This document shows, piece after piece, positions 2,853 to 26,845 of a DNA stretch of 64,000 nt. The notes beneath the pieces were generated by a model. It saw only the letters and a list, made by a program, of their open reading frames with translations. It was not told the DNA's origin and did not search any database. The position numbers and the translations under genes are program-made. The DNA comes from Escherichia phage momo. The DNA lies in sequence record MN850580.1; one strand, given 5' to 3'. How positions within the stretch are numbered: position 1 is the stretch's first letter; each line of letters starts with the position of its first letter.

Positions 2853-4454
2853 TCAACGTCTAAGCCCCTCATATGGGTTTCCTCTCACTAAGTCTGTGTG
2901 AGCACCCATTGATGGTGGCTTGAATAATTTAACTTCGTTAAGACTGTTGAAAGCATCACTGGTAGCATCCACTTGGTCATCTTTAGTTTTGCCATCACCA
3001 CAAAAGCCTTCAAGCTCTTGGAAATAAGCTTCGTTCCAACTACCTCTCAAAACTTTTACAAGTCCAGCTTCAGAAGCAGCAGAAAACCCCGCAAAGCGGG
3101 TAACTTTATCTTTATTTGTTGGTTTGGCTCTTGCTCGATAACCTTTCTCGGCAAGTTTCCTGATGAGGGATGTTGCGTAGGATTTACCAGCAGCGCCTGG
3201 GTCTTGAGGGATAAAAATACCAGTTCGCTTACCGTCACTTTCAGCAGTCAAATTAATTTGTGTTTCGACTCCAGAGGGTCTATCTCTAAATCTTACTACA
3301 TCAATGATATAATAGCAACCGTCTTTTTTAGATTTACCCATCTTAACACCTGCTGTCCAGTCTGGATTAGGGTTAATTTCAGATGGTAAAGTTGCTGCTA
3401 AGTCCCATGCCCTAACATCAAATACATCCTCTGGGAGTGAATCAACAATTTCACACCATTGTCTTTGCCAATAGTTTGAACCTTCTGCACGAGCCTTCCA
3501 GTTACCGAAACGAAGTCTTGCAACGTTTACAGGGGTGTTGTTTTCCAACTTACCGCGATACTTTGGTTCTAAGAAGTCAAGAATTGGGTTATCATCAATC
3601 GTACCAGAGATGAAGGTGTATGTTTGAGGAATCTCAAGAGGGAACATTTCAAGAATCTTGTCTCTCTCCCAATCAGAAACCATCACACCATCATTCATTA
3701 CATACCAACGAATACGACCACACTTTTCAGGGTCTGGATAACCTTCTTCATCTAAGAATGGTTCTACCCAATCATAAATAAAGTGGTCTCTGTCTGGGTT
3801 CATGGAAATCTTCATGTATGAATCACCTTCAGCACCAGAACGTAGACGGGTTTGTAGGTATGAAATCTGTGAAGCAGAGAAGTGTGTACCTTCGTCAAAG
3901 TAAATAGCTGAGTATTCAATACCCTGATGACCTTCAGCGTGCTTTTCAAGTTCTAGGTAGGTAAACTTGATAGTCGCCCCAGAAGGGAATGTGATAGTCA
4001 TTTTCTGCTCGTGAGGAATCCCACCAAACTTACCAAATAGTTTCTTTGCAGCAGGCCATAAACCACCTTGTAACTGTGTTGTATTTCGACGGAAATATAC
4101 AGCATTATAGTTAGGGTCTTCAATAAATCTTAAAGAGTCCATTAACAATGCAGCAGTTTTACCAGCACCAGCAGCACCACCATAAAGAACCAAGTCAGCA
4201 TTAGTGTTTAAAAAGACCTCTTGAGAACCCGGTTGAGGGGCTACATAGTTCTTATCAGTCATCAATTTAAAGATAAGGCGAACTTGGTCTGGTGTGTATC
4301 TTAATAAAGTCAGAATTTGAGTTGGAAGGAATTTAGAGGGGTCTTTACCGAATGATTTGATAATTTCTTTTACTTCATCAGAAAGCCCCAACTCTCCAGC
4401 TAGGACTTTCCTAACATCTTCCACTCGCTTCTGCTTAACAGCATTTAAGTCCAT
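2853..4454 (-). CDS. terL: terminase large subunit
   Basis: Walker A LYGGAAGAGKTAAL near N-terminus, ~530 aa; start set at MDLNAVKQK preceded by GGAGGTG. Confidence 0.85.
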   Translation of the reverse strand: MDLNAVKQKRVEDVRKVLAGELGLSDEVKEIIKSFGKDPSKFLPTQILTLLRYTPDQVRLIFKLMTDKNYVAPQPGSQEVFLNTNADLVLYGGAAGAGKTAALLMDSLRFIEDPNYNAVYFRRNTTQLQGGLWPAAKKLFGKFGGIPHEQKMTITFPSGATIKFTYLELEKHAEGHQGIEYSAIYFDEGTHFSASQISYLQTRLRSGAEGDSYMKISMNPDRDHFIYDWVEPFLDEEGYPDPEKCGRIRWYVMNDGVMVSDWERDKILEMFPLEIPQTYTFISGTIDDNPILDFLEPKYRGKLENNTPVNVARLRFGNWKARAEGSNYWQRQWCEIVDSLPEDVFDVRAWDLAATLPSEINPNPDWTAGVKMGKSKKDGCYYIIDVVRFRDRPSGVETQINLTAESDGKRTGIFIPQDPGAAGKSYATSLIRKLAEKGYRARAKPTNKDKVTRFAGFSAASEAGLVKVLRGSWNEAYFQELEGFCGDGKTKDDQVDATSDAFNSLNEVKLFKPPSMGAHTDLVRGNPYEGLRR

Positions 4455-4475
4455 TAAGCACCTCCGCAAATAGAA

Positions 4476-4676
4476 TTATTCAGAGTCTGTAGCAGTCTCT
4501 TCTTTCTTAACTTCGAACTTTGCATCAACAGCATCAAGAAGTGCATCCATAGAGGCTTCTTTGATATCAATACCTGTTGCTACAGATAATCTATCTGCAA
4601 TTGCCATGATAGTGTTCTGCATAAATTCTAGCTTTTTGTTAGCTTCATAAAGTTCTTTATAAACGGTCTCACTCAT
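4476..4676 (-). CDS. hypothetical small acidic protein (upstream of terL)
   Basis: 66-aa ORF with GGAGA RBS. Confidence 0.35.
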   Translation of the reverse strand: MSETVYKELYEANKKLEFMQNTIMAIADRLSVATGIDIKEASMDALLDAVDAKFEVKKEETATDSE

Positions 4677-4712
4677 TATGTTTTCTCCAAATAATTAACC
4701 ATGTTTCTCCTT

Positions 4713-4736
4713 AAAAAAGACGGCACAGAGACCGTC
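4713..4736 (-). terminator. rho-independent terminator at distal end of tRNA array
   Basis: Minus strand GACGG-loop-CCGTC followed by TTTTTT. Confidence 0.5.
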
Positions 4737-4898
4737 AAGGAGAAACCACAATGTACGTCAGAGACATACTGTATAAGCCTTCTTATAAAGTATAACTCTG
4801 TAAAAAAGCCCTGTCTAAAAATACTCTTCGGTAGCGAAAGGAAGAATACTTATAGCAGGGCATTATTATTATTTTAATTGAGAGAGAGTAAAATAACT

Positions 4899-4974
4899 TG
4901 GAGAATCCGAAGGGACTCGAACCCTTATAAACCTGTTTTGCAGACAGGCACATATCCATTTCTGTCACGGATTC
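4899..4974 (-). tRNA. tRNA-Cys(GCA): tRNA-Cys (anticodon GCA), CCA encoded
   Basis: Manual cloverleaf: acceptor GAATCCG/CGGATTC, anticodon loop CUGCAAA, T-loop. Confidence 0.65.
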
Positions 4975-4978
4975 AAAT

Positions 4979-5071
4979 TGGAGGAAGATACCAGACTTGA
5001 ACTGGTACACCGATTTCTCAGCTACTGGCAGTTTAGCAAACTGCTCCCTTACCTTTTAGGGTTAATCTTCC
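4979..5071 (-). tRNA. tRNA-Ser(GCU): tRNA-Ser (anticodon GCU), long variable arm, CCA encoded
   Basis: 93 nt; acceptor GGAAGAT/ATCTTCC; anticodon loop UUGCUAA. Confidence 0.6.
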
Positions 5072-5072
5072 A

Positions 5073-5870
5073 TTATTTCTGTAATGCGCTCTTCATTTCT
5101 GGTGTTGCAATAGTGTCAATCACACCAGTTTTACAAGCATCGTCAAACCAGTCTGGTAAGATACCTGCTAAGAACCCATTGATATTCGTTTTAAGGTACT
5201 CTGCAATAAGGGCAGCTTCTTCTTCAATCATCTGCACAACTTCATCTGCATAAGCTGTAATCTTTGAAATACCTTCATTAATCTTACTGACAGCTTGGTT
5301 AGCTAAATCAGAAACAGTATCAAGACCCTTATCAATAGCATCTTGTAAGTCACTTAACACACCATTAACACTATCTAGTGTACTGTTCATCATGTCAATA
5401 GCTTTTTGACCATACTCTGTAGCAACACCCATGATACCACTGAATGGTGTACAACCAACTTGTTCTCCTGCTGCACCCATAACATTGGAATACCCCTTTG
5501 CTACCTGCATACGTGATGAAAACTCATCAATAGATTTTTGACCGTAGTCTGTCAGAGTTTTAGTAGTTGCTGTAGTGCTTGTAAGGCTTGTTGTAAAGCT
5601 GTTTAGAAGGACTGTTGTAAGTCCAGCAGCAACAAGTTTCTCCTTCATTGTAGGGTCTGTTACAGAACTAATAGAGCTTACAAGTGATGTAGAAGCAGCT
5701 ACGGTTCCACCGAGAACTGCTGCACCAGTAATAAGCGGGTTAGAGAACCCTTTACCAGTTTTTAAGAGATTAAAAATCTCCTTACCTTGTTCTGTCATCT
5801 CTTTCATTAAGCACCTTTGAAATTGGTAGTCCAGTGGGATTTGAACCCTCTTCTCATGTTTTTCAGACAC
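5073..5870 (-). CDS. hypothetical protein embedded in tRNA array
   Basis: 265-aa ORF between tRNA genes; Ser/Thr-rich middle region. Confidence 0.4.
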   Translation of the reverse strand: MSEKHEKRVQIPLDYQFQRCLMKEMTEQGKEIFNLLKTGKGFSNPLITGAAVLGGTVAASTSLVSSISSVTDPTMKEKLVAAGLTTVLLNSFTTSLTSTTATTKTLTDYGQKSIDEFSSRMQVAKGYSNVMGAAGEQVGCTPFSGIMGVATEYGQKAIDMMNSTLDSVNGVLSDLQDAIDKGLDTVSDLANQAVSKINEGISKITAYADEVVQMIEEEAALIAEYLKTNINGFLAGILPDWFDDACKTGVIDTIATPEMKSALQK

Positions 5871-7918: not shown

Positions 7919-7931
7919 CCTAATAAGACTT

Positions 7932-8014
7932 TGGCATGGGACGGAGGAGTTGAACCACTTTGAAACGGTTTTGGAGGCCGTTGCTCATGCCTTAGAGTCT
8001 TAACATCGTCCCAC
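7932..8014 (-). tRNA. atypical tRNA-like gene (possible anticodon CCA, Trp) with extra nucleotides between acceptor and D region
   Basis: Clear acceptor GUGGGAC/GUCCCAU, T-arm and encoded CCA, but D-region does not fold canonically in manual fold. Confidence 0.4.
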
Positions 8015-8157: not shown

Positions 8158-8239
8158 TGGTCGAGGCGGCAGGACTCGAACCCGCATACTCCACTTACTC
8201 GGTTAACGGCGGTTTAGAAGACCGCTGAGATACGCCCCG
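8158..8239 (-). tRNA. atypical tRNA-like gene; one perfect 5-bp stem with loop CUUCUAA (UCU), no canonical D-arm
   Basis: Acceptor CGGGGCG/CGCCUCG, T-arm and CCA present; body folds ambiguously. Confidence 0.35.
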
Positions 8240-8487
8240 TAATTATCTTTAAAGACTCTCTTAGAAAGCCCTTAAAGATGCCCACCTTATTAATCATACC
8301 GTGGGCTAGTACGCCAAATTCTTTGATGAGGGATTGGAAGACCTCACTGGTGTTTAGCCTATCAAGCTACTGCCAGAAAAACATTGTCGTTTGCATTTAT
8401 TTTAAATTTGCAAAATAGACGCTACGCAACGAAAACTAAGGTTACTATAAAGTAGTCGCATCTCAATGTCAACAACTTTATTGAAAT

Positions 8488-8563
8488 TGGTACTGGTAGG
8501 TGGAATCGAACCACCGATGTTCCCTTATCAGGGGAGTGTTATAACCTTCTTAACTATACCAGC
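8488..8563 (-). tRNA. tRNA-Ile(GAU): tRNA-Ile (anticodon GAU)
   Basis: Anticodon loop CUGAUAA; T-arm GGUGG/CCACC. Confidence 0.6.
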
Positions 8564-8564
8564 T

Positions 8565-8641
8565 TGGAGGTTCAGATGGGAATCGAACCCACATTCATAG
8601 GGCTTATGAGACCCTTGCATTACCTTATCTGCGACTGAACC
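8565..8641 (-). tRNA. tRNA-Met(CAU): tRNA-Met (anticodon CAU)
   Basis: Perfect acceptor GGUUCAG/CUGAACC; anticodon loop CUCAUAA. Confidence 0.6.
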
Positions 8642-8645
8642 ATAT

Positions 8646-8720
8646 TGGTAGAAGTGGAGGGATTCGAACCCATCGCCTGTCAGATTAAAAGTCTGCCGCA
8701 TCACCATTCTGCTACACTTC
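8646..8720 (-). tRNA. tRNA-Lys(UUU): tRNA-Lys (anticodon UUU)
   Basis: Anticodon stem GCAGA/UCUGA (one G-U), loop CUUUUAA. Confidence 0.6.
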
Positions 8721-8872
8721 CATTAAATTATCTTTGTAGATAAGCTACCCAGACTTGCTTAAGGTCTGTAGCGATGTGACTTTTTGGGTTTAAATCTAGA
8801 ATTTACCCTTTCACCCTTTGTGGTCGCATACTCACAGGTAAGCTTAATAACTTATCTACAAAGATAATTACC

Positions 8873-9003
8873 AGACCGTTGTTTATCATCTTAAGTGCTA
8901 CCATTACACCAACTCGACCTCTGCCGAGTGAAGGAATCGAACCTTCGCCTTTTCTTTACCGAGAAATAGATTGTTTAAGTTTTGCTGTAAACGGTCTTCT
9001 GTA
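8873..9003 (-). repeat. tRNA-spacer hairpin repeat (CCAGACC...GGTCTTCTG) enclosing a T-arm-like hairpin
   Basis: Inverted termini CCAGACCGTT / AACGGTCTTCTG; internal GAAGG-AATCGAA-CCTTC with no matching acceptor stem. Confidence 0.4.
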
Positions 9004-9013
9004 AATTTGTTGA

Positions 9014-9113
9014 GCCAGACCAAGTTTTAAATTTTTTCAAAATTGAATTGGCTTGAAAATATCATACATTCTTGCTGTATTTGGTCTTCTACTCCTTTAA
9101 AGAATACTCGTAA
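9014..9113 (-). repeat. tRNA-spacer hairpin repeat (CCAGACC...GGTCTTCT)
   Basis: Same terminal inverted repeat as 8873-9003. Confidence 0.4.
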
Positions 9114-9152
9114 GAACTCTTTAAGGGAGGGGCTAAATAGCCCTCTCAAAAT

Positions 9153-9230
9153 TGGCGGTTACGAAGGGATTTGAACCCTCATCATCTCCCGTGACAGGGG
9201 AGTATTTTAACCAAATTAAACTACATAACC
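9153..9230 (-). tRNA. tRNA-Asp(GUC): tRNA-Asp (anticodon GUC)
   Basis: Perfect anticodon stem CUCCC/GGGAG, loop CUGUCAC. Confidence 0.65.
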
Positions 9231-9235
9231 TTTAT

Positions 9236-9323
9236 TGGTGTGCCGTGTAGGAGTCGAACCTACCGAGTCTCAATGACAAGGGATTTACAGTCCCCACCGC
9301 TACCATCTACGGGATAACGACAC
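9236..9323 (-). tRNA. tRNA-Tyr(GUA): tRNA-Tyr (anticodon GUA), long variable arm
   Basis: 85-nt body; anticodon loop CUGUAAA. Confidence 0.6.
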
Positions 9324-9331
9324 ATTTAATT

Positions 9332-9408
9332 TGGCGGTTAGTCAGGGATTCGAACCCTGTGCCATTCGCTTAACAGGCGACCGCACATACCTTATGTGCT
9401 TCCTAACC
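9332..9408 (-). tRNA. tRNA-Asn(GUU): tRNA-Asn (anticodon GUU)
   Basis: Anticodon loop CUGUUAA; T-arm CAGGG/CCCUG. Confidence 0.55.
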
Positions 9409-9418
9409 TTAATACATT

Positions 9419-9481
9419 GCCAGACCGTGTTTTTTCTTTTATCCGCAAAAAAGTATTTTGTTGCTGAATACGGTCTTCTGC
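9419..9481 (-). repeat. tRNA-spacer hairpin repeat (CAGACCGT...ACGGTCTTCTG)
   Basis: Terminal inverted repeat, immediately 3' of tRNA in transcript orientation. Confidence 0.4.
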
Positions 9482-9486
9482 AAAAT

Positions 9487-9563
9487 TGGAGGCGGGTGCA
9501 GGAGTCGAACCTGCCGATACCATGCTAATGAGACATGTGAGACGCCCTTTCTCTATACCCGCA
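9487..9563 (-). tRNA. tRNA-Met/Ile2(CAU): tRNA with anticodon CAU (initiator Met, elongator Met or lysidine Ile2)
   Basis: Anticodon stem CAUGU/GCAUG, loop CUCAUUA; possible 1-72 mismatch. Confidence 0.5.
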
Positions 9564-9574
9564 ATTCTTAATGA

Positions 9575-9648
9575 CCAGACCAAATCTCTTCTTTGTCCGA
9601 TTTACCTTCAGATGAATAAGATTAAGTTTGCTGTAATTGGTCTTCTGT
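9575..9648 (-). repeat. tRNA-spacer hairpin repeat (CCAGACCAA...TTGGTCTTCTG)
   Basis: Terminal inverted repeat as in the other spacers. Confidence 0.4.
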
Positions 9649-9654
9649 CAAAAC

Positions 9655-9732
9655 TGGCGTTCCAGAAGGGATTTGAACCCTCAGATATCCACTTTGAAAG
9701 AGTGGTGACTATACCATTTTGTCTACTGGAAC
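9655..9732 (-). tRNA. tRNA-Glu(UUC): tRNA-Glu (anticodon UUC)
   Basis: Perfect acceptor GUUCCAG/CUGGAAC; anticodon loop CUUUCAA. Confidence 0.65.
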
Positions 9733-9739
9733 ATTAATT

Positions 9740-9816
9740 TGGTCTCTGTTGGAGGACTTGAACCTCCGGCCTTACCGCCCCAAACGGAACGCTCTACCAA
9801 TCTGAGCTAAACAGAG
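9740..9816 (-). tRNA. tRNA-Pro(UGG): tRNA-Pro (anticodon UGG)
   Basis: Perfect acceptor CUCUGUU/AACAGAG; D-arm GCUC/GAGC; anticodon loop UUUGGGG. Confidence 0.65.
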
Positions 9817-9934
9817 ATAAACTTTTCAAACTCTATGTAACCACTTTAACATTATTTTTTAGTGGTTGTCAAGAACTTTTTTAAAATATTTTTCAGTATC
9901 TTAGAAAAGCTCTCATTTCGTTTCTATGTAGAAC

Positions 9935-9963
9935 ATATTAAAGGGTATCAAACACATTGTCAA
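9935..9963 (-). promoter_or_regulatory. sigma70-like promoter for the tRNA array
   Basis: Minus strand TTGACA, 17-nt spacer, TAATAT, about 120 nt upstream of first tRNA. Confidence 0.5.
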
Positions 9964-9981
9964 TACCCTTTTTAAAACTTT

Positions 9982-11397
9982 TTACCAGATATAACGGTCA
10001 ATCATTACTGCTTTGAGCATTACACTGATTGGGTCAAACTTCTCACCACCAAGCAGAGCTTTTAAAGTGGCTGGAGAGAACCCTGATACCATTGCTACAC
10101 CGTTATCCTTAACAGATACTTCGCAAGTACCATTACGGTTTGCTAAGTACCAGAATACCAGTTGTGGCATCTCATATCCAGCTTTTTTGTACTTACTCTG
10201 AATTGCTTCAAAGTTTGTACGACCGTTAGCTCCATCAACCTGATTGAACTCCATATCGGAGAAGATGATAAGCTTACTTGGCATATCTTTCTGAGTCAAG
10301 TTGTTTCTTTTACCTGTTTCAAGAATGCGGTCAAAAGCTGCTTGTAAGTTAGTTGAGCCATATTCAACGTGTCGCATCACCTGACGATGACGGTTTCGTA
10401 AATCACCACTCAGTTCGATGAAGTGAGGGTTTGTTGAATAAACCATTAACTCATTCTTAAAGCAACCTGTATTGCGTTCTGCTACATACAAGGCAAGTGA
10501 TACACCAATATCCAGAGCAGTAATGGAGCCAAAATTCACCCAAGACATTGAACTTGATACATCAGACATACACAAGATGTTTTCACCTTCTGCCATCCAG
10601 TTTGGTAGTGCTTTCCACTGCTCATTAGCAACATCTGCATTACCATACTTGACAGATTTAATCACATCGTATGGGTAAACAGCACCAGCGTTAATCTTAG
10701 TCTCACCTTTTGATAAGGACTCGATGTAAGATTTGTAACGCTCTCCATCTTTACGGTTAAACAGTTTTTGGTAACGTGCAGCAGCAAGTGAAGGAATCTT
10801 ACTGTAGTCAATCTTACCAAACTCGTTAGCAGAGATTTTTTGCTCAACTGTATCAGATAGTGCAGACAACAGTGTGCGGTACTCTTTCTCACTCAAGTTG
10901 GCAAACTTGCAGAAACGTTTTACAAACTGCTTATGACGTGGTTTGACTCGTGGTAACCACTTAGCTGCCAAACCTGCTGTTGCAGGGTCTAGTAATGCTG
11001 CTTCTAAATGCTTGAAGGCATCTGTCTCGAAACGAGTACCCACGAAGATTTTGAAATCATCAAAGCGACCAAGCTCTGCAATCTTATCCATAATGCGAAG
11101 AACCTGTGTAGACTCTAGAACTTTATCTTCAATCGCTTGAAGTAAAACAGTTCGGAAAGCTTTACGCTCACCCATACCTTCTCGTACATCTCGCATATGC
11201 AGTAAAATACGAACTGCAACATCAACATCCTCATGCAAAGCTTTGTAGAACAAGTCTGGTAAGATTTCTACATTGCTACGGCTAGAACCAGCAGCTTTGT
11301 AAAAGTCCACAAGAGCAGACATTGATGAAGTATGGTTTACAGCACCATTTTCAGTTCGACCTGCATGAAGGTGCACATGTTTAAATAATTCGCTCAT
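9982..11397 (-). CDS. vWA-domain protein with helical N-terminal region (possibly Ro60/TROVE-like or DUF2828-like)
   Basis: 471 aa; C-terminal MIDAS-like motif SDVSSSM followed by GSTN and FSDME; alpha-helical N-terminal ~270 aa. Confidence 0.5.
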   Translation of the reverse strand: MSELFKHVHLHAGRTENGAVNHTSSMSALVDFYKAAGSSRSNVEILPDLFYKALHEDVDVAVRILLHMRDVREGMGERKAFRTVLLQAIEDKVLESTQVLRIMDKIAELGRFDDFKIFVGTRFETDAFKHLEAALLDPATAGLAAKWLPRVKPRHKQFVKRFCKFANLSEKEYRTLLSALSDTVEQKISANEFGKIDYSKIPSLAAARYQKLFNRKDGERYKSYIESLSKGETKINAGAVYPYDVIKSVKYGNADVANEQWKALPNWMAEGENILCMSDVSSSMSWVNFGSITALDIGVSLALYVAERNTGCFKNELMVYSTNPHFIELSGDLRNRHRQVMRHVEYGSTNLQAAFDRILETGKRNNLTQKDMPSKLIIFSDMEFNQVDGANGRTNFEAIQSKYKKAGYEMPQLVFWYLANRNGTCEVSVKDNGVAMVSGFSPATLKALLGGEKFDPISVMLKAVMIDRYIW

Positions 11398-25033: not shown

Positions 25034-25546
25034 TTAGTTCTTAAAGATATTCATCACTGAGTCTTTCAACGATTCCAAACGTTCTAATACTTCAGTTTCT
25101 GCGTCTGAATTGTTCACCTCTTCTTTTAGTCTATCTTCTAAATCCTCACCGTCACTATAGCACCAATCGAAAGCGTAACCAATATAAAAGCTGTCTAAAA
25201 CCGTTTTACCGTTTGCATCTACAACTTTCGCGGCAATGTTATACTCTGAAGCTTCTAAATCTCTTTCTAGTTCTTTTTGTAAGCTGATGTAAGCCTCTTT
25301 TGATGGATTTTCCCGGCCTTGTTTTGCATAGTCACTTGAAAGCTGTTTAAGGCTGTAATGCAAAGGGATTGCATATTTAAATGCATTATGCTGATAGTTA
25401 GGATTTTTAACAGTCACGCCGCCTTGATGGTCATCTGTAAACTTCCAATTATCAAGGTTATGGCTTGCTTCGTAGCAATTTACCGCTTCATAGATAATGG
25501 TGAATTTTTCTTTTACAACTTCAAAAGTAGCGTCTACAGTTTTCAT
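25034..25546 (-). CDS. hypothetical acidic protein (cassette array)
   Basis: 170-aa ORF preceded by cassette. Confidence 0.5.
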   Translation of the reverse strand: MKTVDATFEVVKEKFTIIYEAVNCYEASHNLDNWKFTDDHQGGVTVKNPNYQHNAFKYAIPLHYSLKQLSSDYAKQGRENPSKEAYISLQKELERDLEASEYNIAAKVVDANGKTVLDSFYIGYAFDWCYSDGEDLEDRLKEEVNNSDAETEVLERLESLKDSVMNIFKN

Positions 25547-25634
25547 TTTTGAATCTCCAGTTTAGGATTTAGTGGTAAAGCTCTTTATCTGGGGCTTAAG
25601 ATATCAACTTTTAAGCCCCTTGTAAAGTACTTTA
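25547..25634 (-). repeat. conserved stem-loop plus leader cassette, variant B
   Basis: GGGGCTTAAGATATCAACTTTTAAGCCCC hairpin and leader. Confidence 0.6.
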
Positions 25635-25981: not shown

Positions 25982-26362
25982 TCAGTTAATTTTGAAAATT
26001 GTCACATAGCCGTCACTGCCGATTATTTGAGACACTCCAGCTTTTTCCACTGAATAGTCCATATTTTCAAGATGATAAACAGCATCATCATAACCATATG
26101 CGCCACCCTGATAACGTCTCTTATCGCATCTTATCAGGTTTTTACCACGTCCTGCAAGTGCATTCAGTACAGCTTTTTCACTTGATAGCGTACCATCTAA
26201 CATGGTTGCCGTGTAATGGTTGATTTTATTCCCGTTAATATCATACTTAAAATTGAATGCGTGAATAACAATCAATTTGCCGTTAAATTTTTCATCAAGT
26301 GACTTCTCCAGTGCGTTGCGGAAGTTGTCTTTGTTGATGAATTTCGGTGCACGATAAGCCAT
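25982..26362 (-). CDS. hypothetical protein (cassette array)
   Basis: 126-aa ORF preceded by cassette. Confidence 0.5.
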   Translation of the reverse strand: MAYRAPKFINKDNFRNALEKSLDEKFNGKLIVIHAFNFKYDINGNKINHYTATMLDGTLSSEKAVLNALAGRGKNLIRCDKRRYQGGAYGYDDAVYHLENMDYSVEKAGVSQIIGSDGYVTIFKIN

Positions 26363-26450
26363 TTTTGAATCTCCTAGTTTAAGGTTAATGTAGTAAAGCT
26401 CTTTATCTGGGGCTTACTTTATCGAACTATAAGCCCCTTGTAAAGTACTT
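26363..26450 (-). repeat. conserved stem-loop plus leader cassette, variant B
   Basis: Near-identical hairpin and leader. Confidence 0.6.
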
Positions 26451-26672
26451 TTATCTATCGTAATAGTAAACCGCTGTCTGTTTTATATGTCGCTTTGTAT
26501 TCTTCGTAAGGTAGCAATTAGAGTTGATTGCCGTTTCTACATAGTTGCAATAATCAGCTTCTGATATTCTACGCCATGCGCCGCACACTTGCATGTAAAA
26601 ACGTTTTACCTTTGTATTAACGTTGGTTGTAACCATCAATTCACGGCTGTAAATCATTATTTCGCGCTCCAT
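26451..26672 (-). CDS. hypothetical small protein
   Basis: 73-aa ORF overlapping upstream gene by 16 nt. Confidence 0.4.
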   Translation of the reverse strand: MEREIMIYSRELMVTTNVNTKVKRFYMQVCGAWRRISEADYCNYVETAINSNCYLTKNTKRHIKQTAVYYYDR

Positions 26673-26845
26673 TTCTCAAAGAGTTCAGCAGGGAAACGTT
26701 CGCTATAACCTTTTAAGGAAAAAGTGTTATCTTTGTGGATAGCTTCCACCTGATAAACCTTATAAGAACGTATAGTTAGCATTTTGTAAGAGTATTCGTG
26801 CTTAATGTTAACCTCATCGCCAACTTTAATTTTTCTTGATGCCAT
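26657..26845 (-). CDS. hypothetical small protein (first gene of cassette array)
   Basis: 62-aa ORF preceded by leader CTAAACTGGAGAATCTAAGAAATG. Confidence 0.45.
   Translation of the reverse strand: MASRKIKVGDEVNIKHEYSYKMLTIRSYKVYQVEAIHKDNTFSLKGYSERFPAELFEKWSAK

What the first reader, a model, noticed from the sequence alone, without database searches (positions are those of the whole stretch)
8724..9648. Conserved hairpin repeats and a long inverted repeat in tRNA spacers
Four spacers (8873-9003, 9014-9113, 9419-9481, 9575-9648) are bounded by the same inverted termini CCAGACC(N2-3)...(N2-3)GGTCTTCTG with 35-110-nt loops. One encloses a perfect T-arm-like hairpin GAAGG-AATCGAA-CCTTC with no acceptor partner. 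Separately, 8724-8742 and 8851-8869 form an 18-19-bp perfect inverted repeat around ~110 nt. These look like processing sites, small mobile inserts or tRNA remnants.
Basis: seen in the sequence. Interest (0 to 1): 0.4.

Follow-up and report, generated by a model that had tools for sequence, protein, structure and literature searches.

The report
Phage Y-like RNAs beside Ro60-like gene
The four repeated "hairpins" between the tRNA genes of this Felix O1-like phage are genes for small structured RNAs, one of them a tRNA mimic. They belong to a widespread RNA class, not described in anything I could search, that always sits next to a phage Ro60-like protein gene and most likely forms a Y-RNA-type particle with it.

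Summary
The repeats are real, with small coordinate corrections. They read sensibly only on the minus strand, the strand of the tRNAs and of the upstream 471-aa DUF2828/DUF7788 gene (9982-11397).

- **The protein.** Its AlphaFold model matches only Ro60/TROVE structures over its full length.
- **The shared "handle".** Each element has a 7-8-bp terminal stem, then a single-stranded (U/A)(A/U)CAGCAA box, then a variable interior, then the 3' stem strand followed by G.
- **E1 (8871-9001).** Its interior is a permuted tRNA-like domain: V hairpin, T arm, closed acceptor-like stem and D arm. This is the architecture of bacterial YrlA Y RNAs, and it covaries strongly.
- **Independent detection.** A covariance model built only from distant phages (protein 38-47% identical) finds E3, E4, E2 and E1 as the top four hits in the window.
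- **Gene linkage.** The same model gave 138 of 138 significant hits on the DUF2828 gene strand, across IMG/VR contigs, six cultured phages and GTDB genome contigs. In the IMG/VR set, 57 of 66 hits lie within 700 nt of the gene.
- **Prior knowledge.** No Rfam family covers them. Two recent papers only speculate that such phages encode Y RNAs.

Expression and protein binding are inferred, not shown. The handle closely resembles Dictyostelium Class I RNAs, which is an untested lead. The separate long inverted repeat is a conserved, covarying minus-strand RNA hairpin.

The parts
9575..9647 (-). E4: short handle RNA, 73 nt. CAGA-AGACCAA-U-UACAGCAA...UUGGUCU-GG.
   Evidence: Model R1, built without any window sequence, scores it 34.0 bits, E 1.7e-5. 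It lies 335 nt downstream of the Ro60-like gene, between tRNA-Glu and tRNA-Met.
9420..9480 (-). E3: short handle RNA, 61 nt. AGACCGU-A-UUCAGCAA...ACGGUCU-GG.
   Evidence: R1 scores it 38.2 bits, E 1.7e-6. Rfam Dicty_Class_I gives a weak hit of 26.7 bits. The stem is recovered by the repeat finder as I4.
9015..9091 (-). E2: short handle RNA, 77 nt, with a conserved inner hairpin UUUUCAA-GCCAAUUCAA-UUUUGAAAA.
   Evidence: R1 scores it 28.9 bits, E 2.7e-4. The interior is conserved in Felixounavirus and Mooglevirus.
8871..9001 (-). E1: handle RNA, 131 nt, carrying a permuted tRNA-like (YrlA-type) domain.
   Evidence: An unconstrained MFE fold gives the basal stem plus V, T, AS and D hairpins. R2 scores it 109.6 bits (E1 was in the training set). 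Covariation is shown. There is no Rfam YrlA hit.
8982..8989 (-). CAGCAA box of E1 (UACAGCAA). The equivalent boxes are at 9072-9079 (E2), 9461-9468 (E3) and 9628-9635 (E4).
   Evidence: One search finds 4 exact matches against 0.16 expected. C, A, G, C, A, A are invariant columns in the 24 distant RNAs of alignment A3.
8951..8966 (-). V hairpin of E1: UUUCU-CGGUAA-AGAAA.
   Evidence: The HP1/Mordin orthologues have CUUUC-AGGGUAU-GAGAG instead.
8930..8946 (-). T arm of E1: GAAGG-UUCGAUU-CCUUC.
   Evidence: The Rfam tRNA model matches positions 43-63 at 14.9 bits. Helix 1 is 100% paired, with 3 of 5 pairs changed on both sides.
8912..8929 (-). Acceptor-like closed stem-loop (AS) of E1: ACUCGGC-AGAG-GUCGAGU.
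   Evidence: All 7 pairs covary and are 100% paired in 12 sequences. Orthologues carry ACACG/CGUGU (Sf13, Sf17) or ACCCUUC/GAAGGGU (HP1, Mordin).
8895..8909 (-). D arm of E1: GUGU-AAUGGUA-GCAC, with GG in the loop.
   Evidence: helix 3, 93.8% paired.
8726..8869 (-). E0: conserved long hairpin RNA. A stem of about 22-24 bp encloses about 100 nt, including an apical mini-hairpin CAGACC-UUAAGCAA-GUCUGG. Its role is unknown; it could be an RNase III site.
   Evidence: Arms found. Folding z-scores are -4.8 and -5.8. Five variants show 3 double compensations, a paired 1-bp deletion, and U.G pairs that are valid only on the minus sense.
9982..11397 (-). Ro60-like protein gene, 471 aa, with Pfam DUF2828 and DUF7788. 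This is the presumed protein partner.
   Evidence: Pfam hits. AF2 model pLDDT 89.4. The top 13 PDB matches are all Ro60/TROVE proteins, E 2e-8 to 3e-5, TMq up to 0.66.
9843..9872 (-). Sigma-70-like promoter, TTGACA-18-TAAAGT with TG, just upstream of tRNA-Pro. A second one lies at 9935-9963. These are the likely starts of the tRNA/E-RNA transcript.
   Evidence: This is a consensus match only.

Best explanation
**What they are.** E1-E4 are genes for small non-coding RNAs on the minus strand. They are co-transcribed with the phage tRNAs, 335-981 nt downstream of a Ro60-like (DUF2828/DUF7788) gene.

**How they are made (inferred).** The enzymes that mature the flanking tRNAs would release them: RNase P at the next tRNA's 5' end, and endo- and exonucleases at the previous tRNA's 3' end.

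**The handle.** Each RNA has a common 'handle'. The 5' and 3' ends pair in a 7-8-bp stem that starts A-U, G-C. The 5' strand is followed by an unpaired N-(U/A)(A/U)CAGCAA box. The 3' strand is followed by an unpaired G.

**What the handle does (inferred).** It is the docking site for the Ro60-like protein, analogous to the conserved helix of Y RNAs.

**The interior.** The variable interior acts as an adaptor. In E1 it is a tRNA-shaped domain with a T arm, a closed acceptor-like stem and a D arm, like bacterial YrlA. That domain could recruit tRNA-binding enzymes or act as a decoy for them. E2-E4 are short, YrlB-like species.

**What the particle does (inferred).** It would act in RNA or tRNA quality control, or in counter-defence during infection.

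**Shown versus inferred.** Shown here are the sequence class, its structure, its strand and its genetic linkage. Transcription as discrete RNAs, binding to the protein and the downstream function are inferred.
For: 1. **Strand.** The T loop UUCGAUU and the D loop with GG make sense only on the minus strand. The asymmetric box has the same orientation in all four elements.
2. **Protein.** The adjacent gene has a Ro60 fold but no TROVE Pfam hit.
3. **E1 architecture.** It has the YrlA order V-T-AS-D described by Chen 2014 (PMC4201824). Unconstrained folding recovers this order in E1 and in 15 counterparts. On a MAFFT alignment that was not fitted to the structure, 98.4% of cells pair against 69.5% in shuffles and 40-50% in slid controls. 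Twelve of 16 pairs change on both sides.
4. **Independent detection.** Model R1 was built from 24 RNAs of distant phages only. It finds E3 (38.2 bits, E 1.7e-6), E4 (34.0), E2 (28.9) and E1 (18.9) as the four best hits in 128 kb of sequence, all on the minus strand.
5. **Linkage to the gene.** Every R1 hit lies on the DUF2828 gene strand:
   - 66 of 66 in 75 IMG/VR loci, with 57 of 66 within 700 nt of a gene end.
   - 14 of 14 in Listeria LP-083-2, Staphylococcus SEP9, Mycobacterium Lolly9, Campylobacter CP81, Klebsiella FBKp34 and Vibrio phi-pp2.
   - 58 of 58 in GTDB contigs.
   - A stricter regex scan gave 95 gene-strand hits against 13 on the opposite strand and 10-24 for control hexamers.
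6. **tRNA-like versions elsewhere.** R2 gave 23 hits, all on the gene strand. At five of these sites the Rfam YrlA model gives significant matches that stay below its gathering score (E 2e-5 to 8e-5).
7. **Context.** DUF2828 genes sit in tRNA arrays in several phage families. In the Listeria phage the gene lies near an RtcB ligase, echoing the Salmonella rsr-yrlBA-rtcBA operon.
8. **Literature.**
   - The Ro60-like gp130 of Bas63 (a Felixounavirus) counters the ppl defence, and its authors guessed that some 'tRNAs' are Y RNAs (PMC11482910).
   - The region upstream of the homologous gene in the P100-like phage CKA15 holds the most abundantly transcribed non-coding RNAs of that genome (PMC12282133).
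Against: - There are no expression or end-mapping data for this phage.
- Nothing here or in the literature shows that any DUF2828 protein binds these RNAs.
- The handle lacks the GNCGAAN0-1G or GGUCCGA motif of known Y RNAs.
- E1 gets no Rfam YrlA hit even at E<=10.
- Bas63 gp130 alone, from a plasmid or inserted into T7, restores growth on ppl strains. That activity therefore does not need these RNAs.
- In CKA15 the single mapped hot region is the ROOL-like RNA, not the handle RNAs. Coordinates for the other two hot regions are not given.
- Only about 55-60% of DUF2828 loci gave an R1 hit.
- Salmonella phage PMBT20 has naturally lost E2 and E3, so not every copy is essential.
- Stem covariation in the scan-derived set is partly circular, because pairing was a selection criterion.
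Confidence: 0.65

Rival explanations
1. The elements are cis-acting processing or stability signals of the polycistronic tRNA precursor. The hairpins and the box would guide RNase E, III or P, or protect tRNA ends. They would have no life as separate RNAs and no protein partner encoded next door.
For: They lie in tRNA spacers, 6-12 nt from the tRNA ends. The neighbouring long hairpin E0 has a perfect stem of about 22 bp, the kind RNase III cuts. No expression data exist.
Against: The same handle occurs next to DUF2828 genes that have no tRNA nearby. Examples are Staphylococcus SEP9, directly after the gene, and Mycobacterium Lolly9. It also carries elaborate, conserved and covarying interiors, including tRNA mimics. 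tRNA spacers elsewhere in this same array lack it.
Confidence: 0.12
2. The elements are cis-regulatory binding sites in the untranslated regions of the DUF2828 mRNA. Through them the protein would autoregulate its own synthesis. They would not be trans-acting partner RNAs.
For: In most distant loci the handles lie within 300 nt up- or downstream of the gene, on the same strand.
Against: In this window promoter-like sites and two tRNAs separate them from the gene. They occur in tandem sets of 2-5 with different cargo domains. Some lie 1-5 kb away, inside tRNA arrays (L135, L193, L200).
Confidence: 0.08
3. The elements are selfish or neutral repeats: miniature mobile inserts, or leftovers of tRNA gene duplication and decay.
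For: The copies have inverted termini. E1 contains tRNA-like pieces. The region is an indel hot spot, with HNH endonuclease insertions and a PMBT20 deletion between copies.
Against: Positions are orthologous across genera. There are no dispersed copies in 64 kb. There are no target-site duplications. Helices keep pairing through compensatory substitutions. The box is conserved across phage families that share no DNA similarity.
Confidence: 0.03
4. The elements act at the DNA level, as palindromic protein-binding sites, recombination sites or replication-related sites in the tRNA region.
For: Perfect inverted repeats could form cruciforms. The repeats may mediate deletions, as in PMBT20.
Against: G.U pairs are tolerated on one strand only, in distant handles such as AGAUUAGU/GCUAGUCU and in the E0 stem. 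All 138 hits lie on one strand relative to the gene. The tRNA-like tertiary motifs are meaningful only as RNA.
Confidence: 0.03

Closest known systems
Bacterial and phage YrlA/YrlB Y RNAs bound by Ro60 (Rsr) (Chen et al. 2013, 2014; Rfam RF02553)
   Same: - They are encoded within about 1 kb of a Ro60-fold protein gene, on the same strand.
- The 5' and 3' ends pair in a stem next to a conserved motif near the 5' end.
- One RNA per locus (E1) carries a tRNA-like domain in the order V hairpin, T arm, closed acceptor-like stem, D arm.
- Shorter species without that domain accompany it, as YrlB accompanies YrlA.
- The locus can be linked to tRNAs and to the RtcB ligase.
   Different: - The protein is DUF2828/DUF7788. 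It is not detectable as TROVE by sequence.
- The conserved motif is a single-stranded (U/A)(A/U)CAGCAA box after the 5' stem strand. It is not GNCGAAN0-1G or GGUCCGA.
- E1 does not score with RF02553. Relatives reach only 29-40 bits against a gathering score of 69.
- There are up to five copies, with very diverse interiors.
- Binding and function are untested.
Dictyostelium Class I RNAs (Rfam RF01414; Aspegren 2004, Avesson 2011, Kjellin 2021)
   Same: - Size of 42-77 nt, in multi-copy families.
- A covarying 6-7-bp stem joins the ends.
- A conserved G-C pair lies near the terminus.
- An unpaired UUACAGCAA follows the 5' stem strand directly.
- The 3' strand ends in ...C-U-G.
- The interior is A/U-rich and variable.

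Compare DdR-42 GUUGAC-CUUACAGCAA...GUCAAC-UG with the phage L182 RNA AGGAUGC-UUACAGCAA...GCAUCCU-G. The RF01414 model weakly hits E3, E4, E1 and a distant phage RNA.
   Different: - Class I RNAs are eukaryotic genes with a DUSE promoter. The authors' 2020 preprint attributes them to Pol III.
- All phage scores are below the gathering score (at most 26.7 against 41.5).
- Dictyostelium has one extra linker nucleotide.
- The known direct binder is an RRM protein, Rnp1A/CIBP.
- I could not test whether Dictyostelium has a DUF2828 protein.
Permuted tRNA genes (Cyanidioschyzon merolae type)
   Same: In E1 the 3' half of a tRNA-like sequence (T arm plus 3' acceptor strand) precedes the 5' half (5' acceptor strand plus D arm). 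The outer ends are held together by a stem.
   Different: There is no anticodon arm with a 7-nt loop. There is no bulge-helix-bulge splice motif. The acceptor stem is closed by a 4-nt loop, so a mature aminoacylatable tRNA is not the expected product.
T4 'species 1/2' (rnaC/rnaD) stable RNAs in the T4 tRNA cluster (recalled from general knowledge, not tested here)
   Same: They are small stable RNAs of unknown function, encoded among phage tRNA genes and released by tRNA-processing enzymes.
   Different: No sequence comparison was made. T4 is not known to encode a DUF2828 protein.

Membership tests
YrlA-type Y RNA (Rfam RF02553; Chen 2014) | Encoded within 4 kb of a Ro60 orthologue on the same strand. 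| tested here: met
   E1-E4 start 335-981 nt downstream of 9982-11397(-), on the same strand. The protein is Ro60-like by fold only.
YrlA-type Y RNA (Rfam RF02553; Chen 2014) | tRNA-like domain in the order V stem-loop, T arm, closed acceptor-like stem-loop, D arm, enclosed by paired 5' and 3' ends. | tested here: met
   MFE folds. Covariation on a MAFFT alignment gives 98.4% paired, with 12 of 16 pairs changed on both sides. This applies to E1 only; E2-E4 lack the domain.
YrlA-type Y RNA (Rfam RF02553; Chen 2014) | GNCGAAN0-1G motif near the 5' end (the presumed Rsr-binding site). | tested here: not met
   The 5' regions read CAGAAGACC-NNN-UACAGCAA, with no GNCGAA.
YrlA-type Y RNA (Rfam RF02553; Chen 2014) | Scores at or above the Rfam gathering score (69 bits). 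| tested here: not met
   E1 gets no hit even at E<=10 on 156 nt. Related handle RNAs reach 28.7-39.6 bits.
YrlA-type Y RNA (Rfam RF02553; Chen 2014) | Physically bound by the Ro60 protein; carries tRNA modifications; cleaved by RNase P. | not testable with these tools
   Needs RIP/CLIP, EMSA and modification mapping.
Ro60/TROVE protein (for the neighbouring gene) | TROVE domain detectable by sequence (Pfam PF05731) or by similarity to solved Ro60 sequences. | tested here: not met
   Pfam finds only DUF2828 and DUF7788. phmmer against PDB sequences finds nothing relevant.
Ro60/TROVE protein (for the neighbouring gene) | Helical-repeat ring plus C-terminal vWA domain fold. | tested here: met
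   AF2 model pLDDT 89.4. The 13 best Foldseek PDB hits are all Ro60/Rsr/TROVE over the full length. After those come vWA domains only.
Dictyostelium Class I RNA (Rfam RF01414) | Short terminal stem joining the 5' and 3' ends, with structure conserved but not sequence. | tested here: met
   The stems are 7-8 bp and differ between copies and between phages.
Dictyostelium Class I RNA (Rfam RF01414) | 11-nt motif CCUUACAGCAA next to the 5' stem strand. | tested here: inconclusive
   Eight of the 11 nt (UACAGCAA) are present at the same place. The positions most conserved in Dictyostelia (C6, C9, A10, A11) are invariant in the phage set.
Dictyostelium Class I RNA (Rfam RF01414) | Score at or above the gathering score (41.5 bits); DUSE promoter about 60 nt upstream. 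| tested here: not met
   The best score is 26.7 bits for E3. A eukaryotic promoter element is not applicable to a phage.
tRNA gene or pseudogene | Cloverleaf in standard order, recognised by ARAGORN or the Rfam tRNA model. | tested here: not met
   ARAGORN makes no call at 8871-9001. The Rfam tRNA model matches only the T arm, at 14.9 bits.
Miniature inverted-repeat mobile element | Terminal inverted repeats with target-site duplications and dispersed copies at non-orthologous sites. | tested here: not met
   There are only four copies, all in one 780-nt stretch. Positions are orthologous across genera.
Intrinsic terminator | GC-rich hairpin followed by a U tract on the transcribed strand. 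| tested here: not met
   No minus-strand terminator-like site was called at any of the four elements.

The most novel reading that the evidence does not exclude
The phage handle RNAs and the Class I RNAs of dictyostelid social amoebae would be one RNA class. That class would be defined by four features: a covarying terminal stem closed by a conserved G-C pair, an unpaired UUACAGCAA box, a 3' ...CUG tail, and a variable interior.

Its conserved partner would be the DUF2828/DUF7788 Ro60-like protein family, whose published mentions include plants and a tardigrade genome. If so:
- Class I RNAs, whose mechanism has been open since 2004, would be Y-RNA-like cofactors.
- DDB_G0281243, the protein of unknown function pulled down with DdR-21, or another Dictyostelium protein, would be the Ro60-like partner.
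- A second, Ro60-parallel RNP system would span viruses, bacteria and eukaryotes.
Probability: 0.2. Interest if true: 0.9.

Novelty: new variant of a known kind. Interest (0 to 1): 0.8.

Why it matters
Ro60-Y RNA particles are a classic RNA-surveillance system. Until now they were defined by TROVE proteins and by Y RNAs with a GGUCCGA/GNCGAA helix.

This analysis ties a very large phage protein family to a specific, easily recognisable RNA partner class with its own recognition module. The family has 709 phage records and more than 2,500 clusters. It includes Felix O1, P100/A511-like Listeria phages, Staphylococcus, Campylobacter, Vibrio KVP40-like and cluster L mycobacteriophages.

Practical consequences:
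- **Two published guesses become testable.** These are Bas63 gp130 ('some tRNAs may be Y RNAs') and Listeria CKA15 ('abundant RNAs may be Y RNAs'). Exact RNA coordinates and mutations can now be designed.
- **Some mis-annotations are explained.** Small ORFs and odd 'tRNAs' drawn over these loci are probably spurious.
- **It bears on counter-defence.** The protein counters the ppl defence. It also sits among tRNAs and RNA ligases, so the RNP may belong to the phage toolkit against RNA-targeting immunity. Several of these phages are used for typing, biocontrol or therapy.
- **It offers a concrete hypothesis for Dictyostelium.** The resemblance gives a testable idea for the long-unexplained Class I RNAs.

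Tried and rejected
- **Pairing across the tRNAs.** I tested whether the GGUCUGG upstream and CAGAAGACC downstream of a tRNA could form rRNA-style processing stems. Rejected, because the NNN positions are complementary only within a spacer element (read directly).
- **Sigma-70 promoters inside the elements.** By eye no -10 hexamer is consistently placed on either strand. The scan found only one weak + strand site, inside E2.
- **A true permuted tRNA gene.** Rejected: there is no anticodon arm and the acceptor stem is closed.
- **Extra regex matches at about 6776 and 1407.** These look like chance matches in coding-type sequence, with no 3' partner. The strict scan and R1 do not recover them.
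- **First crude scan (8-bp stem allowing G.U within 220 nt).** Its background was too high: 17 hits against 2-9 in shuffles. I replaced it with a stricter rule plus controls and with calibrated covariance models.
- **Rfam.** No family covers the elements at gathering score in the window or in 10 distant loci.
- **IMG/VR pattern scan for the right arm.** Multi-copy hits came only from Felixounavirus-like contigs. Single hits elsewhere look like chance.
- **Literature.** Searches for DUF2828, for the motif and for phage Y RNAs found no description of this RNA class. Subscription journals are not covered.
- **Dictyostelium protein check.** I could not do it. The afdb50 fold library was unavailable. 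Avesson 2011 and Aspegren 2004 are not held. DDB_G0281243 appears in a single preprint, with no domain information.
- **Kayvirus transcriptome paper.** Not relevant to this locus.
Full report
**Context.** The window is from a Felix O1-like phage (Felixounavirus, Ounavirinae). The region 8400-10000 is 97-98% identical to many Escherichia and Salmonella phages of that genus. ARAGORN finds 25 tRNA genes, all on the minus strand, between 4899 and 9816. Directly upstream in the direction of transcription lies a 471-aa ORF, 9982-11397(-).

**Checking the observation.** The four repeats exist. On the + strand they read CCAGACC-NNN...TTGCTGWA-NNN-GGTCTTCT(G/A):

| Element | Coordinates |
|---|---|
| E1 | 8871-9001 |
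| E2 | 9015-9091 |
| E3 | 9420-9480 |
| E4 | 9575-9647 |

With that box the motif occurs 4 times against 0.16 expected.
- The three variable stem positions covary between the arms.
- The long inverted repeat is 8726-8747 / 8848-8869: 22 nt, 95% complementary.
- The claim that the T-arm hairpin has 'no acceptor partner' is wrong (see below).

**Which strand, and what E1 is.** Read on the minus strand, E1 runs as follows:

- CAGA-AGACCGUU-UACAGCAA...
- V hairpin UUUCU-CGGUAA-AGAAA
- T arm GAAGG-UUCGAUU-CCUUC
- ACUCGGC-AGAG-GUCGAGU
- UG, then D arm GUGU-AAUGGUA-GCAC
- ...AACGGUCU-GG

This is a tRNA-like domain whose acceptor stem is closed by a loop and whose 'anticodon' side opens into the terminal stem. 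It is exactly the V-T-AS-D layout that Chen et al. 2014 describe for bacterial YrlA Y RNAs, which are encoded within 4 kb of Ro60 on the same strand (PMC4201824).

- Unconstrained MFE folding recovers the four hairpins inside the basal stem, both in E1 and in its counterparts.
- Orthologues replace the acceptor-like stem wholesale: ACUCGGC/GUCGAGU here, ACACG/CGUGU in Sf13 and Sf17, ACCCUUC/GAAGGGU in HP1 and Mordin.
- A MAFFT alignment of 12 such RNAs was not fitted to any structure. On it the T, AS and D helices are 98.4% paired. Shuffles give 69.5% and slid controls 40-50%. Twelve of 16 pairs change on both sides, and all seven AS pairs covary.
- ARAGORN does not call E1. The Rfam tRNA model matches only its T arm. 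The Rfam YrlA model (RF02553) does not hit it even at E<=10.

**The neighbouring protein.**

- The ORF carries Pfam DUF2828 and DUF7788, with no TROVE hit.
- It has no sequence-level match to solved structures.
- Its AlphaFold model (pLDDT 89.4) finds Ro60/Rsr/TROVE structures as its 13 best PDB matches over the full length. These include the Thermus phage phiLo Ro60. After them come isolated vWA domains only.
- The family is very large in phages: 2,559 clusters and 709 GenBank phage records. Those records include Mycobacterium ('Ro-like RNA binding protein'), Listeria, Staphylococcus, Campylobacter, Enterococcus, Bacillus and Vibrio phages.

**The handle is a conserved RNA class linked to that gene.** I fetched 75 distant viral loci encoding DUF2828 proteins that are 38-47% identical to the window's protein.

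- A strict scan looked for a 7-bp stem, then 2-3 nt, then CAGCAA, then the complementary 7 nt followed by G. It found 95 instances on the gene strand and 13 on the opposite strand. Eight control hexamers gave 10-24.
- The good instances share more than the scan demanded:
  - a first pair of A-U or U-A;
  - a second pair of G-C;
  - the box N-(U/A)(A/U)CAGCAA;
  - a 3' tail of G, often GU.
- Their stem sequences are completely different from one another.
- I aligned 24 short examples from those distant loci only (A3) and built covariance model R1.
- In the window, R1's four best hits in both strands of 64 kb are E3 (38.2 bits, E 1.7e-6), E4 (34.0, 1.7e-5), E2 (28.9, 2.7e-4) and the 5' part of E1 (18.9, 0.065). 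All are on the minus strand, and the next hit has E>0.5.
- In the 75 loci R1 gives 66 hits at E<=0.1. All 66 are on the gene strand, in 46 loci, and 57 lie within 700 nt of a gene end.
- In six cultured phages from six families, all 14 hits abut the gene on its strand:

| Phage (locus) | R1 hits | DUF2828 gene |
|---|---|---|
| Listeria LP-083-2 (L215) | 3620-3888 | 3959-5482 |
| Staphylococcus SEP9 (L214) | 2759-2976 | 1234-2742 |
| Mycobacterium Lolly9 (L213) | 5459-5723 | 3980-5419 |
| Campylobacter CP81 (L212) | 3862-4019 | 4037-5419 |
| Klebsiella FBKp34 (L210) | 5528-5729 | 4001-5440 |
| Vibrio phi-pp2 (L211) | 3962-4010 | 4001-5437 |

- In 80 GTDB genome contigs, 58 of 58 hits are on the gene strand, in 42 loci.
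- In total, 138 of 138 hits lie on the gene strand, in three independent collections.

**Modular interiors.** The interiors fall into several types:

- nothing at all, giving RNAs of 44-77 nt;
- a permuted tRNA-like domain;
- a complete tRNA (L179 5755-5855);
- several larger shared domains of unknown nature.

A second model, R2, built from tRNA-like examples, finds 23 hits at E<=0.01 in about 1 Mb. All are on the gene strand, and they include new ones in Klebsiella FBKp34 and Mycobacterium Lolly9. At five of these places the Rfam YrlA model gives significant matches that stay below its gathering score of 69 (37.7-39.6 bits, E 2e-5 to 8e-5). No Rfam family reaches its gathering score on any handle RNA.

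**How it probably works.**

- Promoter-like sites with perfect TTGACA lie between the Ro60-like gene and tRNA-Pro, at 9963-9935 and 9872-9843. A terminator-like hairpin lies at 9971-9940.
- I infer that E1-E4 are transcribed together with the tRNAs and released by the tRNA-processing machinery.
- I infer that the handle docks onto the Ro60-like protein, and that the interiors serve as adaptors or decoys.
- E1 would present a tRNA shape, as YrlA does in the Rsr-YrlA-PNPase machine.
- The frequent placement of DUF2828 genes in tRNA arrays supports a role in RNA or tRNA surveillance or in counter-defence. So does the RtcB ligase about 1.3 kb downstream in the Listeria phage, which echoes the Salmonella rsr-yrlBA-rtcBA operon.

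**What the literature adds.**

- PhageMaP (PMC11482910) shows that gp130 of Bas63, a Felixounavirus, is Ro60-like and counters the ppl defence. It is described as lying directly upstream of the tRNAs. I infer that it is the orthologue of the window's ORF, but I did not test that. The authors only guess that some annotated tRNAs might be Y RNAs.
- gp130 alone rescues T7 on ppl strains. That activity therefore does not require these RNAs, which limits the model.
- For the P100-like Listeria phage CKA15 (PMC12282133), the Rsr-like protein CKA15_055 is found in virions. Three non-coding regions within 2 kb upstream, on the same strand, are the most transcribed parts of the genome. The authors suggest they may be Y RNAs.
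- By coordinate transfer, their region 26,236-26,727 corresponds to a ROOL-like RNA (87.4 bits against a gathering score of 99.1). The handle RNAs map to about 25,287-25,555. The paper gives no coordinates for the other two regions.
- I found no paper that describes the handle or the box.

**The long inverted repeat (E0, 8726-8869).**

- It is conserved as a structure in Felixounavirus and Mooglevirus.
- Five variants show three pairs changed on both sides, a base pair deleted on both sides, and U.G pairs that would be A.C mismatches on the + sense. It is therefore a minus-strand RNA hairpin.
- Its tip carries a mini-hairpin, CAGACC-UUAAGCAA-GUCUGG (CAAACCC-UUUAGCAA-GGUUUG in Mooglevirus), that loosely resembles a cargo-less handle.
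- Its function is unknown. An RNase III processing site is a reasonable guess.

**The Dictyostelium lead.**

- The only non-tRNA Rfam model that touches the elements is Dicty_Class_I_RNA: E3 26.7, E4 19.7 and E1 13.0 bits, and a distant phage RNA 24.3 bits, against a gathering score of 41.5.
- Class I RNAs are 42-65 nt long. They have a covarying 6-bp terminal stem, a fully conserved 5' G paired to the C of a 3' CUGU, and the motif CCUUACAGCAA after the 5' strand. Their function is unknown (PMC7919456).
- Real sequences show the match. DdR-42 is GUUGAC-CUUACAGCAA...GUCAAC-UG, and an A. subglobosum RNA is GGUCGUC-UUACAGCAA...GAAGACC-UG. They line up with the phage handle in stem, G-C pair, box and 3' CUG, with one extra linker nucleotide.
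- Scores in the mid-20s also occur by chance in large genomes. The resemblance is therefore a lead, not a finding.
- The decisive check is whether dictyostelids encode a DUF2828 protein, for example the uncharacterised DdR-21 interactor DDB_G0281243. I could not run it.

**Verdict.** The elements are best explained as a new, handle-defined variant of Y-like RNAs partnered with a divergent Ro60-like protein. The class, its structure, its strand and its gene linkage are shown here. Expression, binding and function remain to be tested.

Noticed in passing
window 8161-8239 (-) and 7930-8010 (-): Two tRNA-like sequences that ARAGORN does not call. The first scores 31.7 bits with the Rfam tRNA model, just above its gathering score. 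The second has a recognisable T-arm-like GGTTCAACTCC when read by eye. They may be unusual or degenerate tRNAs.
   Followed up: no
window 9092-9129: A 17-nt inverted repeat, 82% complementary with a 4-nt loop, between E2 and tRNA-Asp (I2). Next to it lies a second small hairpin, GAGGGCTATTTAGCCCCTC. Both are unexplained.
   Followed up: no
L002 676-933; L127 607-735; L212 3903-4040; L003 824-952: Related records annotate small 'hypothetical protein' ORFs over these RNA loci: AYO145A_047/wV8 gp048, HP1_22 and CP81 ORF140. One annotates a 129-nt 'tRNA-Thr-GGT' there (ASO1B). These are probably mis-annotations.
   Followed up: partly
L215 2429-2980 (Listeria phage LP-083-2): A ROOL-like RNA (87.4 bits, gathering score 99.1) lies about 1 kb upstream of the DUF2828 gene, among tRNAs. 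By coordinate transfer it matches the most highly transcribed region, 26,236-26,727, of phage CKA15.
   Followed up: partly
L296 (Salmonella phage PMBT20); L031; hits H52, H130, H137: The E1-E4 block is an indel hot spot. PMBT20 has lost E2, three tRNAs, E3 and tRNA-Met, and keeps only an E4-type hit. Other relatives carry an HNH homing endonuclease insertion between E2 and E3, giving a spacing of 847 nt instead of 389-416.
   Followed up: partly
L179 5755-5855: A complete standard-order tRNA (52.9 bits) sits inside a handle stem with a UUUCAGCAA box. The handle can therefore carry a real tRNA as cargo.
   Followed up: no
L178 5652-5898, L183 5653-5900, L195 1891-2142, L202 5714-5878, L205 5435-5674; also L140 7471-7722, L171 7754-7937, L184 7758-7941: Two families of large (160-250 nt) conserved interiors are carried inside handles. 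They contain, for example...GGCUUGCGGAACUGAACCGAUAUACUGGGGAAUAGGCAAGCAG... and ...GAGACCCGGAGAUCAGUGACCUGGUUCAAAACUAAAA.... They match no Rfam family and look like further structured RNA domains.
   Followed up: no
window 9843-9872, 9935-9963, 9940-9971 (-): Two promoter-like sites with perfect TTGACA and a terminator-like hairpin lie between the Ro60-like gene and tRNA-Pro. This suggests that the RNA/tRNA array is transcribed separately from the gene.
   Followed up: no
L147 11696-11922: A group I intron (71.5 bits, above the gathering score) lies in a distant DUF2828-encoding phage contig.
   Followed up: no
Supplemental Table S4 of PMC7919456: The Class I RNA model of Kjellin et al. gave a 40-bit candidate in Arabidopsis thaliana: UGUUUUC-AUUACAGCAA...GAAAAC-UG. 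DUF2828 proteins are reported in plant studies. The authors dismissed the candidate for lack of a DUSE promoter.
   Followed up: no
Listeria phage CKA15 (PMC12282133): The Ro60-like DUF2828 homologue CKA15_055 was detected in purified virions with 57% sequence coverage. This hints that the protein, and perhaps its RNAs, are packaged or injected.
   Followed up: no
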